DNA of 64,000 nucleotides from Patescibacteria group bacterium (lineage in GTDB: Bacteria > Patescibacteriota > Patescibacteriia > UBA11705 > DATKZF01). The position numbers and the translations under genes are program-made. The notes beneath the pieces were generated by a model. It saw only the letters and a list, made by a program, of their open reading frames with translations. It had not been told where the DNA came from and searched no databases. The DNA lies in assembly GCA_049319825.1 (NCBI GenBank), contig JBMORT010000002.1, forward strand, positions 15,550 through 79,549, given 5' to 3'. Positions 47,545 to 48,140 of this stretch are shown one piece after another (position 1 is the first letter of the stretch; the number at the start of each line of letters is the position of its first letter).

Positions 47545-48140
47545 TTGAACGCTAAAGGGAAGGCGGCAGGGGGGACACTACTTGATTCGTTTTGAACAAT
47601 TGATTCGTCGTTCCCCTGCCGCGTGAGGGCGCAAAGAAAAAATCGTCTATTTAAGACAGCCAAGGCTTCGCGCCCTCGCCCCAAATGTTTTGAAGAACAG
47701 CTCGGGCGATGGCGTGAAATTCGTTGTGTCGAAATTCGAAATTAGTTTGGAAACTCGTAAAATCGATATTCGTTTTGTCGAAATTCGATATTGGAAACTC
47801 GTTTAAAGCGAATTTCGATTTTCCAATTTCGATTACGAATATCGAATATCGACAACACGATTTTCGAATGGAATGAAAGAGTCCGGGCAGAACGCTTGCT
47901 CTGGTGAGCGGCGCGTTCTGCCCGGGATCAGGGGACAGACTCACACTCGTCATGTGAACACGGCGAGACTCGTCCTCTCCCGCAACCCTCTATTGCTAGA
48001 AAACTGCGGGAGAGGCGGCAGGGGAACATGATCTCGATCATTTTAAACACTACGTTTATCGTTCCCCTGCCGCCGTGTTGGGAGACACGCCTCGTGACGC
48101 CATTAACATCCCAAACCACGTCTCCCAAATCGCATTTTTA
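47545..48140 (-). ncRNA. candidate structured non-coding leader RNA (bridge/seek-RNA-like) upstream of the IS110-like recombinase
   Basis: No credible ORF. Two paralogous stem-loops, GGCGGCAGGGG(G)A-(about 35 nt)-TCGTTCCCCTGCCGC, at 47557..47625 and 47993..48075. Further perfect hairpins GAGGGCGC(38 nt)GCGCCCTC at 47625 and CCGGGCAGAACGC(17 nt)GCGTTCTGCCCGG at 47882. Heptamer tandem repeats at 47730..47880. A sigma70-like promoter lies upstream on the same strand. Confidence 0.3.

What the first reader, a model, noticed from the sequence alone, without database searches (positions are those of the whole stretch)
47545..48140. Two paralogous GGCGGCAGGGG(35 nt)CCCCTGCCGCC stem-loops plus further perfect hairpins in the recombinase leader: candidate bridge-RNA-like guide loops
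Stem-loop H1 is at 47557..47625 (ggcggcaggggggacACTACTTGATTCGTTTTGAACAATTGATTCGtcgttcccctgccgc). Stem-loop H2 is at 47993..48075 (ggcggcaggggaaCATGATCTCGATCATTTTAAACACTACGTTTATCGttcccctgccgcc). They share an 11-14-bp GC-rich stem and carry different but related loops of about 35 nt, the architecture expected for programmable target and donor loops. Perfect hairpins GAGGGCGC(38 nt)GCGCCCTC (47625..47680) and CCGGGCAGAACGC(17 nt)GCGTTCTGCCCGG (47882..47924) lie between and beside them. The H2 loop contains cgtttatcgtt, which is identical to an 11-mer in heptamer-repeat copy C (ctcgtttatcgtttatcg) and matches 10 nt in copy A abutting the cassette. The H1 loop shares attcgttt with the same elements. 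The repeats are low-complexity, so these matches could be chance, but loop-to-flank complementarity is the hallmark of IS110 guide RNAs.
Basis: partly seen in the sequence, partly recalled or inferred. Interest (0 to 1): 0.8.

Follow-up and report, generated by a model that had tools for sequence, protein, structure and literature searches.

The report
Stem-loop TIGR guide-RNA array with TasR
The hairpins are real. They are five guide RNAs of a recently described RNA-guided DNA-binding system (TIGR-Tas) in a candidate-phyla-radiation bacterium, not the bridge RNA of a mobile-element recombinase.

Summary
The hairpins exist, with start coordinates off by up to 21 nt. The "recombinase" (46175-47476, minus strand) passes NCBI's TIGR-Tas model and fails both IS110 models. 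Its best fold match is the solved TasR structure. It is 47% identical to a Buchananbacteria protein that the founding TIGR paper names as a TasR with inactive RuvC.

H1, H2, the GAGGGCGC hairpin and two unreported hairpins are five stem-loop tigRNA units. On the minus strand each reads stem, CGA, 9-nt spacer, UG, short loop, CGA, 9-nt spacer, UG, stem. The same motif occurs 612 times in the same orientation against 44 in the other in 80 homologous loci. A covariance model built only from those loci finds exactly these five units in the 64-kb window.

H1 and H2 share about 89% of their scaffold but only 28% of their spacers.

The proposed loop-to-heptamer-repeat complementarity is at chance level (P about 0.16) and lies mostly in stem and box C. 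No DNA target was found.

Three of four RuvC catalytic residues are replaced. The likely function is therefore RNA-guided DNA binding or repression, inferred from a published relative.

This is a new member of a known kind. A side result is a second conserved 42-nt hairpin class that punctuates these arrays. I found no description of it in the papers I read.

The parts
46175..47476 (-). tasR gene, a Nop-domain protein with an N-terminal RuvC-like domain predicted to be inactive. The SD GGAGG lies at 47480-47484. The start is probably the second ATG at 47473, giving 432 aa identical to P0001.
   Evidence: NCBIfam NF052498 TIGR_Tas_endo scores 126 bits against a cut-off of 100, while the IS110 models score 35/140 and 20/180. 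The top Foldseek hit is 9MTY TasR at 4.6e-9. The AF2 model has pLDDT 88.7. The protein is 47% identical to the Buchananbacteria TasR locus L026.
48152..48180 (-). Promoter-like site, TTGACA-17 nt-TATTGT with a TG extension. It lies about 20 nt upstream of the first unit.
   Evidence: Consensus scan, 10 of 12 matches. This is a consensus match only.
It has a 9-bp stem, and box C is CGU in both halves. Spacer A is GGUUUGGGA (48109-48117) and spacer B is CACGAGGCG (48088-48096).
   Evidence: CM R1 gives 31.2 bits, E 7e-6. The fold has z = -5.4.
It has a 14-bp stem. Spacer A is UAAACGUAG (48050-48058) and spacer B is UCGAGAUCA (48029-48037). The second box C is UGA.
   Evidence: CM R1 gives 32.6 bits, E 3e-6. 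The fold has z = -7.1.
47974..48015 (-). Non-guide 19-bp hairpin with a pyrimidine-rich 5' arm and a purine-rich 3' arm (class HP2). Its 3' arm GGGAGAGG overlaps the 5' arm of T3.
   Evidence: CM R2, built from 66 copies in other loci, gives 34.7 bits, E 1.5e-5. The fold is -29.1 kcal/mol, z = -7.1, with 4 G.U pairs on the minus strand only.
Its 7-position stem holds one A.C mismatch. Spacer A is GUCUCGCCG (47961-47969) and spacer B is GUGUGAGUC (47938-47946).
   Evidence: CM R1 gives 17.6 bits, E 0.027. Both halves are perfect CGA-N9-UG.
47883..47925 (-). It is not a guide unit, because the loop is too short for two spacers. It is followed by ACUCUUUCAUUCC.
   Evidence: I13; -33.5 kcal/mol, z = -8.5. 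Similar CCGG...CCGG hairpins lie in or next to arrays in other loci. The function is unknown.
47690..47880 (.). AT-rich spacer between the two sub-arrays. It holds six TCGAWATTCG motifs and folds into a long imperfect hairpin.
   Evidence: Six motif copies against 1.2 expected, all within this stretch. The motif is absent from the 80 related loci. No tigRNA unit is found here with filters off.
Spacer A is AGCCUUGGC (47659-47667) and spacer B is UUUUUUCUU (47634-47642). The inner loop forms a 5-bp mini-hairpin.
   Evidence: CM R1 gives 36.6 bits, E 3e-7. The fold has z = -4.5.
Spacer A is CGAAUCAAU (47599-47607) and spacer B is AUCAAGUAG (47578-47586). The stem is 10 bp, then a 1x2 internal loop, then 2 bp.
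   Evidence: CM R1 gives 24.7 bits, E 4e-4. The fold has z = -5.5.
47522..47563 (-). Second copy of the non-guide HP2 hairpin, 18 bp. It lies between T5 and the tasR ribosome-binding site.
   Evidence: CM R2 gives 37.8 bits, E 3e-6. The fold is -26 kcal/mol, z = -8.6.

Best explanation
The region 47522-48180 is a stem-loop TIGR (tandem interspaced guide RNA) array. It lies upstream of a tasR gene and on the same strand. The host appears to be a candidate-phyla-radiation bacterium, and the locus sits next to rnpA-dnaA-dnaN.

Shown:
- Five units share the architecture stem / box C (CGA) / 9-nt spacer A / box D (UG) / 7-11-nt loop / box C / 9-nt spacer B / box D / stem.
- This architecture is the hallmark of the arrays flanking the homologues of this protein.

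Inferred from published relatives:
- A transcript that starts near 48145 is cut into single hairpin units.
- A TasR dimer binds each unit through the box C/D motifs.
- The two spacers then pair with opposite strands of a contiguous 18-bp DNA site. Its top strand reads spacer A followed by the reverse complement of spacer B.
- The RuvC-like domain lacks three of the four catalytic residues, as in CsTasR. The complex should therefore bind DNA without cutting and act as a sequence-specific repressor or roadblock.

The natural targets are unknown.
For: Protein:
- TIGR_Tas_endo scores above its cut-off in the window protein and in all 28 aligned homologues.
- The only PDB sequence hit with the single protein is TaTasR 9MTY. 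The profile search gives 9MTY at 9e-18 and IS621 at only 0.04.
- Foldseek ranks 9MTY first, then IS621, then TasH.
- L026, 47% identical, is the locus that Faure 2025 cites as a TasR with inactivated RuvC.
- An insertion of about 78 aa lies between beta3 and beta4 (residues 43-120). This matches the roughly 80-aa insertion reported for CsTasR.
- At the DEDD positions the protein has R13, L126/G127, K168 and D171, and these are conserved across the clade.

RNA:
- Five units cluster in 550 bp, against about 0.05 expected.
- In 80 loci the motif occurs 612 times in the same orientation relative to tasR and 44 times in the other.
- The consensus ACGA-N9-UGU equals one of the motif pairs used by the published TIGRFinder pipeline, box C CGA with box D TG.
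- The inner helix, which was not used to select units, is 94% paired with UA/CG/GC swaps.
- A covariance model built without the window finds exactly these five sites in 64 kb, all on the minus strand.

Strand:
- A.C mismatches outnumber G.U by 283 to 114 when the stems are read antisense.
- The minus-strand fold is 27 kcal/mol more stable than the plus-strand fold.
- A promoter-like site lies on the minus strand.

Programmability:
- H1 and H2 share about 89% of their scaffold and 28% of their spacers.
- In 41 of 51 within-locus unit pairs with at least 90% identical scaffolds, both spacers are at random-level identity.
Against: - There are no expression or processing data for this locus.
- No DNA target was found in the window, in IMG/VR or in the related loci.
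- Two units have non-consensus box C (CGU in T1, one UGA in T2).
- T3 has a weak stem. It competes with a much more stable neighbouring hairpin.
- RuvC inactivity and repression are extrapolated from CsTasR, whose sequence I could not compare directly.
- Conserved D120, D131 and D171 leave room for a non-canonical active site.
- The array is short, five units against up to 22 in relatives.
Confidence: 0.9

Rival explanations
1. IS110-type element. On this reading the protein is an RNA-guided recombinase. H1 and H2 would be the target-binding and donor-binding loops of a bridge RNA that pairs with the heptamer repeats at the element ends.
For: - Weak Pfam hits to Transposase_20 and DEDD_Tnp_IS110.
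- IS621 structures are the second-best fold matches.
- The RNAs lie upstream of the gene, as in IS110.
- The locus is a GC-rich island (61% against 36-39%) with paralogous heptamer arrays on both sides.
- An 11-mer is shared with one of those arrays.
Against: - The IS110 NCBIfam scores are far below their cut-offs.
- The DEDD tetrad is absent, and the position aligned to the IS621 catalytic Ser is Lys/Arg.
- There are five single-loop units rather than one two-loop RNA.
- The 11-mer match has P about 0.16 and covers only 6 spacer bases. No spacer comes within 1 mismatch of any repeat.
- Homologues carry up to 22 such units on both sides of the gene. That does not fit a bridge RNA.
Confidence: 0.03
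2. The units guide the protein to RNA rather than DNA, like box C/D sRNAs, for example to modify or mask rRNA or tRNA. Faure 2025 speculated that this dead-RuvC clade could be an intermediate towards snoRNPs.
For: - The units have a tandem-guide box C/D-like architecture.
- The nuclease domain is predicted to be inactive.
- No DNA target was found.
- The speculation appears in the Discussion of PMC12045711.
Against: - The related CsTasR was shown to bind dsDNA and to repress transcription in a guide-dependent way.
- The units have no K-turn boxes (RUGAUGA / CUGA), as the alignments show.
- No methyltransferase is encoded nearby. The neighbours are an orphan ORF, a GIY-YIG protein, tRNAs and RNase J.
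- Box C/D Nop proteins match the model only at E about 0.2.
Confidence: 0.05
3. The hairpins are generic structured leader, terminator or REP-like elements with no guide function, and they lie next to the gene by coincidence.
For: Three hairpins in the leader (47522-47563, 47883-47925, 47974-48015) are indeed not guide units. The AT-rich palindrome is specific to this locus.
Against: - A model trained on other genomes finds the five units, and only them, in 64 kb.
- The fixed 9-nt spacing, box motifs and orientation are conserved across 80 loci, while the spacer sequences are random-like.
Confidence: 0.02

Closest known systems
Stem-loop TIGR arrays with catalytically dead TasR of the CPR clade. 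Examples are Candidatus Staskawiczbacteria CsTasR (Xu et al. 2026, bioRxiv 10.64898/2026.09.09.750476) and the Ca. Buchananbacteria RIFCSPHIGHO2_02_FULL_56_16 locus (Faure et al. 2025, PMC12045711).
   Same: - RuvC-like domain plus coiled coil plus Nop domain.
- An insertion of about 80 aa between beta3 and beta4.
- Arg at the first catalytic position.
- No C-terminal Y/H processing loop.
- Hairpin units with two spacers flanked by box C (CGA) and box D (UG), and an inner loop that can form a mini-hairpin.
- Units encoded upstream of tas, on the same strand.
- Host in the CPR.
- 47% identity to the Buchananbacteria protein.
   Different: - Only five units, all upstream. Relatives usually carry arrays on both sides.
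- The two sub-arrays are split by a locus-specific AT-rich palindrome.
- The protein is 432 aa, against 547 aa for CsTasR.
- No closer relative than 59-62% identity is on record.
Dual-repeat TIGR-TasR (TaTasR, PDB 9MTY)
   Same: - Nop-domain fold, and the best structural and sequence match in the PDB.
- Two 9-nt spacers.
- UG as box D, with the C of box C pairing with the G of box D.
- Target geometry of spacer A + rc(spacer B).
   Different: - TaTasR has an active RuvC (D11).
- It uses 36-nt units delimited by edge and loop repeats instead of long stems.
- Its box C is CCA.
- It is thought to process its own array through a C-terminal Y/H dyad.
IS110 / IS621 bridge RNA recombinases
   Same: - Homologous RuvC, coiled-coil and RNA-binding core.
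- Guide RNA encoded next to the gene.
- Split guides that pair with both DNA strands.
   Different: - The window protein has no DEDD tetrad and no catalytic Ser.
- There is no two-loop RNA that couples a donor to a target.
- There is no complementarity to the element ends.
- The units are multiple and independent.
Archaeal and eukaryotic box C/D sRNPs (Nop5/Nop56/58)
   Same: Nop domain, and a tandem-guide RNA with C/D and C'/D' elements in a hairpin.
   Different: - The window units have no K-turn consensus.
- No L7Ae or fibrillarin partner is evident.
- In characterised relatives the target is DNA.

Membership tests
TIGR-Tas (stem-loop array, TasR) | A Tas protein with the Nop RNA-binding domain | tested here: met
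   NF052498 scores 126.3 bits against a cut-off of 100, and all 28 homologues match it. 9MTY is the top sequence and fold hit in the PDB.
TIGR-Tas (stem-loop array, TasR) | An N-terminal RuvC-like domain (the TasR subtype), which in the CPR clade is inactivated and carries an insertion of about 80 aa | tested here: met
   The strand order and the insertion at residues 43-120 are seen in the AF2 model. The DEDD positions hold R13, L126/G127, K168 and D171, conserved across the clade. Inactivity itself is inferred.
TIGR-Tas (stem-loop array, TasR) | [quoted passage not shown] | tested here: met
   Five units have 9-nt spacers. T3, T4 and T5 carry perfect CGA-N9-UG in both halves, while T1 and T2 each carry non-consensus box C. 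The motif pair CGA/TG is one used by TIGRFinder.
TIGR-Tas (stem-loop array, TasR) | Several units in tandem next to tas, with the same architecture in homologous loci | tested here: met
   Five units lie within 570 nt upstream of tasR. In 80 loci there are 612 oriented units against 44. Covariation score is 0.79 against 0.20 in shuffles. A CM from other loci recovers exactly these five.
TIGR-Tas (stem-loop array, TasR) | [quoted passage not shown] | tested here: met
   The last helix runs to residue 432 of 433 in the model.
TIGR-Tas (stem-loop array, TasR) | The array is transcribed and processed into single units that are bound by Tas | not testable with these tools
   The evidence is indirect only: a promoter-like site, G.U asymmetry and a strand-specific folding energy.
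TIGR-Tas (stem-loop array, TasR) | The two spacers recognise a DNA target in tandem | tested here: inconclusive
   The geometry was taken from Table S3 of Faure 2025. No match with 3 or fewer mismatches at gap 0 exists in the window. IMG/VR hits are at chance level.
IS110 family bridge-RNA recombinase | The protein scores as IS110 family | tested here: not met
   NF033542 scores 35 bits against a cut-off of 140, and NF051857 scores 20 against 180. DEDD_Tnp_IS110 scores 20.7 against 29.
IS110 family bridge-RNA recombinase | A DEDD RuvC tetrad and a catalytic serine in the Tnp domain | tested here: not met
   No Asp occurs at position 13 in any of the 28 sequences, L126/G127 are invariant, and K168 is present in 25 of 28. 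The IS621 Ser (chain residue 243 in YESGSS) aligns to Lys/Arg in a loop. The alignment in that loop is of low confidence.
IS110 family bridge-RNA recombinase | One RNA with two internal loops, whose guides match the target and the element ends | tested here: not met
   There are five separate single-loop units. The match to the flanking repeats has P = 0.16, and only 6 nt of it are in a spacer.
Box C/D sRNA | K-turn-forming box C (RUGAUGA) and box D (CUGA) | tested here: not met
   The boxes are CGA and UG(U), as seen in the unit alignments. No Rfam C/D family reaches its threshold; the only hit is sR19 at 16.7 bits against 45, and it lies outside the units.

The most novel reading that the evidence does not exclude
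The arrays of this TasR clade may contain a second functional RNA module besides the guide units. It is a hairpin of about 42 nt and 18-20 bp, with a CCCUCUUU-type pyrimidine 5' arm, an AAAGAGGG-type purine 3' arm and two conserved G.U pairs.

- It is found only on the tasR strand, with 130 copies in 52 of 80 loci.
- In about half of the cases its 3' arm is also the 5' arm of the next guide unit.
- It could be the missing maturation signal of stem-loop tigRNAs. One possibility is an RNase III-type double-strand cut that frees the arm so that the guide stem can form.
- Alternatively it could be a folding switch or an insulator.
- The window has two copies, at 47974-48015 and 47522-47563.
Probability: 0.3. 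Interest if true: 0.55.

Novelty: new member of a known kind. Interest (0 to 1): 0.33.

Why it matters
For the scan, this converts a high-interest "bridge-RNA-like" call into a confident annotation. The locus is a chromosomal stem-loop TIGR-TasR system, beside the dnaA-dnaN origin region, in a family that databases still mostly label "transposase" or "hypothetical".

It shows that a sequence-only reader can spot programmable guide scaffolds. It also shows that loop-to-flank matches in low-complexity repeats need a shuffle control.

For the TIGR field the locus adds little by itself. Two family-wide by-products bear on questions the 2026 preprint calls open:
- Spacers turn over as discrete modules inside nearly identical scaffolds. 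This is relevant to how spacers are acquired.
- A conserved non-guide hairpin shares an arm with the following unit. This is relevant to how stem-loop tigRNAs are matured.

Tried and rejected
- Plus-strand reading. I first read the units on the plus strand as CAN-N9-CG, which fits equally well by eye. I rejected it on G.U/A.C asymmetry, folding energy, the published box motifs and CM scores of 13 bits or less on the plus strand.
- Heptamer repeats as targets. The 11-mer has P = 0.16, and no spacer comes within 1 mismatch of a repeat.
- Self-targets in the window. I tested both geometries, two registers and gaps of 0-2. The hits fit chance: the best is 2 mismatches with a 2-nt gap, for the low-complexity T4 spacers.
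- Viral targets. Exact 18-mers in IMG/VR gave 0, 1, 0, 1 and 7 hits. The 7 fall in 5 unrelated contexts. The wrong-geometry controls gave 0 and 3.
- Own-locus targets across 505 units in 80 loci. The right and wrong geometries were equally enriched.
- Further units in the AT-rich spacer, in tasR or downstream. None appeared with CM filters off.
- Rfam. Only tRNAs pass at gathering thresholds, and the relaxed search gives spurious miRNA-precursor hits.
- PADLOC. No hit.
- The upstream 193-aa ORF as a partner. It has no Pfam hit and is not conserved beside tasR.
- Strain variation. The only other contig with this protein is 100% identical to the window.
- A strict re-implementation of the TIGRFinder stem rule (contiguous stem of at least 4) recovers only T4, because the stems of T5 and T3 have mismatches next to the boxes. 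The published tool uses an edit distance instead.
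Full report
**Observation**

- H1 lies at 47562-47622.
- H2 lies at 48014-48074.
- The GAGGGCGC hairpin lies at 47625-47677, with a 37-nt loop.
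- The CCGGGCAGAACGC hairpin lies at 47883-47925.

The leader is extraordinarily structured. The minus-strand RNA of 47480-48150 folds at -299 kcal/mol, against -198 +/- 5 for shuffles, z = -18.7.

**The protein**

The minus-strand ORF 46175-47476 has only weak Pfam IS110 signals.
- It passes NCBIfam NF052498, "TIGR-Tas system RNA-guided endonuclease", at 126 bits against a cut-off of 100.
- It fails both IS110 models, at 35 against 140 and 20 against 180.
- Its 718 database relatives carry candidate-phyla-radiation names where named, and are 45-62% identical.
- Its only PDB relative by single-sequence search is TaTasR 9MTY. With a profile, 9MTY scores 9e-18 and IS621 only 0.04.
- An AlphaFold model (pLDDT 88.7) matches 9MTY best, then IS621, then TasH.
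- One of the 80 homologous genome loci, L026 (47% identity), is the Candidatus Buchananbacteria scaffold. Faure et al. 2025 name that scaffold as their example of a TasR with inactivated RuvC.

The model has an insertion of about 78 residues between beta3 and beta4 (residues 43-120). This resembles the roughly 80-residue insertion reported for CsTasR.

The canonical DEDD positions hold the following residues:
- R13, which is never Asp in 28 sequences;
- the invariant pair L126/G127;
- K168;
- D171.

CsTasR, which has Arg and Val at the first two positions, did not cut DNA. The position aligned with the IS621 catalytic serine is Lys/Arg in a low-confidence loop. The protein is therefore a TasR of the CPR stem-loop clade, not an IS110 recombinase.

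**The RNAs**

Published stem-loop tigRNAs are hairpins. [quoted passage not shown] Five hairpins in the leader fit this architecture with exactly 9-nt spacers.

Read 5'->3' on the minus strand, the units are:

| Unit | Coordinates | Sequence |
|---|---|---|
| T1 | 48128-48078 | CGU-GGUUUGGGA-UG ... CGU-CACGAGGCG-UG |
| T2 (= H2) | 48074-48014 | CGA-UAAACGUAG-UG ... UGA-UCGAGAUCA-UG |
| T3 | 47978-47930 | CGA-GUCUCGCCG-UG ... CGA-GUGUGAGUC-UG |
| T4 (the GAGGGCGC hairpin) | 47677-47625 | CGA-AGCCUUGGC-UG ... CGA-UUUUUUCUU-UG |
| T5 (= H1) | 47622-47563 | CGA-CGAAUCAAU-UG ... CGA-AUCAAGUAG-UG |

A relaxed pattern scan gives about 11 hits per shuffled window over both strands. The five real units cluster in 550 bp on one strand.

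In the 80 homologous loci the same motif inside a stem occurs 612 times in the same orientation relative to tasR, against 44 in the other. Of the 612, 580 have the 9-nt spacing. The family consensus is gAC-GA-N9-UGU ... ACGA-N9-UGUc. CGA with TG is one of the motif pairs that the published TIGRFinder pipeline uses for stem-loop arrays.

In an alignment of 140 units from other genomes, 92% of stem cells are paired. The covariation score is 0.79, against 0.20 in shuffles. The inner helix, which played no part in selecting units, is 94% paired with UA, CG and GC alternatives.

A covariance model built from that alignment, without the window, finds exactly five matches in the whole 64-kb window at E <= 10. 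All are on the minus strand. They score 36.6, 32.6, 31.2, 24.7 and 17.6 bits. With filters off, nothing further that is credible appears in 45900-49100.

**Strand**

The architecture is nearly palindromic, and I first read it on the plus strand. Four observations favour the tasR (minus) strand:
- When the stems are read antisense, A.C mismatches outnumber G.U by 283 to 114, while other mismatch types number 23-61 each. The wobble pairs therefore lie on the sense strand.
- The minus-strand leader RNA is 27 kcal/mol more stable than the plus-strand one.
- A promoter-like site, TTGACA-17-TG-TATTGT, lies at 48180-48152 on the minus strand, about 20 nt before T1.
- Box D reads UG on that strand, as published.

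H1 and H2 share about 89% of their scaffold (arms, boxes, inner loop) but only 5 of 18 spacer positions. This holds across the family. Among 51 within-locus unit pairs with at least 90% identical scaffolds, 41 have both spacers at random-level identity.

The proposed pairing with the heptamer repeats is not supported.
- The shared 11-mer consists of 2 stem bases, 3 box C bases and 6 spacer bases.
- An 11-mer or longer is shared in 16% of shuffles.
- No spacer comes within one mismatch of any repeat.

**Targets**

From the TaTasR tigRNA1 and its synthetic target in Table S3 of Faure 2025, the target top strand is spacer A followed by the reverse complement of spacer B, with no gap. The five predicted 18-mers are:
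- T5: CGAATCAATCTACTTGAT
- T4: AGCCTTGGCAAGAAAAAA
- T3: GTCTCGCCGGACTCACAC
- T2: TAAACGTAGTGATCTCGA
- T1: GGTTTGGGACGCCTCGTG

None has a match in the window with 3 or fewer mismatches at gap 0. Exact matches in IMG/VR number 0, 7 (5 independent contexts), 0, 1 and 1. Wrong-geometry controls gave 0 and 3, so this is chance level. Across 505 units in 80 loci, near-matches within the unit's own locus are no more frequent for the right geometry than for the wrong one. Xu et al. also state that natural targets cannot yet be determined.

**Other elements in the leader**

The hairpins at 47974-48015 and 47522-47563 are not guide units. They belong to a second conserved class, which I call HP2.
- Each copy is about 42 nt with 18-20 pairs.
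- The 5' arm is pyrimidine-rich (CCCUCUUU..AG).
- The 3' arm is purine-rich (..AAAGAGGG).
- The apical loop is 3-6 nt.

Long hairpins of this kind number 109 on the sense strand, against 25 on the antisense strand, within 150 nt of units in the 80 loci.

An alignment of 66 copies gives an 18-pair consensus. Compensatory changes occur at 17 pairs, and two wobble pairs are conserved: G.U in 53 of 66 and U.G in 47 of 66. A model built from them finds the two window copies (37.8 and 34.7 bits). Nothing else in the 64 kb scores significantly, apart from the reverse strand of the first copy. It finds 130 sense-strand copies in 52 of the 80 loci.

In 68 of the 130 copies, box C of a guide unit starts within 9 nt of the hairpin's end. 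The hairpin's 3' arm is then also that unit's 5' arm. In the window this applies to T3. The text of the TIGR papers I read mentions linkers, overlapping stems and a CUU motif at processing boundaries, but not this hairpin. The 5' arm does contain CUU.

The GC-rich hairpin at 47883-47925 and the AT-rich spacer at 47690-47880 remain unexplained. The spacer holds six TCGAWATTCG motifs that occur nowhere else.

**Mechanism**

Shown here:
- the protein family;
- the unit architecture and its conservation;
- the orientation.

Inferred from published work on relatives:
- transcription from about 48145 towards tasR;
- release of single hairpin units;
- binding of each unit by a TasR dimer through the C/D boxes;
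- pairing of the two spacers with opposite strands of an 18-bp site;
- no cleavage, hence repression or blockage.

**Context**

The locus lies between rnpA-dnaA-dnaN on one side and a tRNA cluster, RNase J and RuvB on the other. It is therefore chromosomal and close to the likely origin. tasR is 61% GC, against 36-39% in its neighbours. Across the family, tasR exceeds its flanks by 9 GC points on average.

**Verdict**

This is a real, well-supported guide-RNA array of a known kind, and a new member of the CPR stem-loop TIGR-TasR clade. The bridge-RNA and recombinase reading, and the link to the heptamer repeats, are not supported.

Noticed in passing
window 47974-48015 and 47522-47563 (minus strand); for example L002:2842-2889, L007:4452-4500, L034:4362-4409: A second conserved RNA hairpin class (HP2) occurs inside CPR TasR arrays. 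Each copy is about 42 nt and 18-20 bp, with a CCCUCUUU-type 5' arm, an AAAGAGGG-type 3' arm and two conserved G.U pairs, on the sense strand only. There are 130 copies in 52 of 80 loci. The 3' arm is often the 5' arm of the next tigRNA. I found no description of it in the papers I read. It could be a processing signal or a folding switch.
   Followed up: partly
80 homologous loci (L001-L080); window units T5 and T2: Units with at least 90% identical scaffolds within one locus have spacers at random-level identity in 41 of 51 pairs. Few pairs are intermediate. Spacers therefore seem to be exchanged as modules rather than to drift.
   Followed up: partly
window 47690-47880: An AT-rich spacer lies between the two sub-arrays. 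It holds six TCGAWATTCG motifs in about 125 bp, against 1.2 expected in the whole window. There are none elsewhere in the window and none in the related loci. The stretch is three copies of a unit of about 45 nt, folding into a long imperfect hairpin. It could be an operator or an insertion.
   Followed up: partly
window 47883-47925: A GC-rich hairpin of 13 + 4 bp (CCGGGCAGAACGC...) is followed by ACUCUUUCAUUCC. GC-rich hairpins that start CCGG and end CCGG lie in or next to arrays in other loci (L004, L007, L009, L022), often directly 5' of an HP2 copy.
   Followed up: partly
window 45964-46111, 49707-49793, 50130-50322; also 35377-35490 and 3878-3936: These are arrays of degenerate 7-nt repeats (CATGGAG / GAGAYAC / TTCGTTT types) with a central GAATTC palindrome. 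Three copies are paralogous, 83-87% identical in register. They lie between dnaN and tasR and upstream of tRNA genes. Their function is unknown, and they are not tigRNA targets.
   Followed up: partly
window 46100-49000 against its flanks: tasR is 61% GC and the upstream orphan ORF 53%, while dnaA and dnaN are 33-39%. Across 55 related loci, tasR is on average 9 GC points above its outer flanks. This suggests horizontal transfer or a strong compositional constraint.
   Followed up: partly
window 49571-49657 and 50388-50471: Two tRNA-Leu(UAA) genes lie 0.8 kb apart, with tRNA-Gly(GCC) between them. Their 5' halves are 81% identical over 52 nt. Each intergenic stretch carries a heptamer array.
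   Followed up: no
window 47477-47515 (minus strand): In the predicted fold of the leader, the tasR Shine-Dalgarno sequence AGGAGG pairs with an upstream CCUUCU. This resembles the pyrimidine/purine arms of HP2 and could sequester the ribosome-binding site.
   Followed up: no
window 48333-48914 (minus strand) and 49126-49380 (minus strand): An orphan 193-aa ORF lies just upstream of the array. It has no Pfam or PADLOC hit and is not conserved beside tasR elsewhere. Next to it is an 84-aa stand-alone GIY-YIG protein, whose homologue also lies about 2.5 kb upstream of tasR in L040.
   Followed up: partly
window 41948-45954: The gene order rnpA (minus strand), dnaA, dnaN indicates the chromosomal origin region. 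The TIGR-TasR locus directly abuts it.
   Followed up: no
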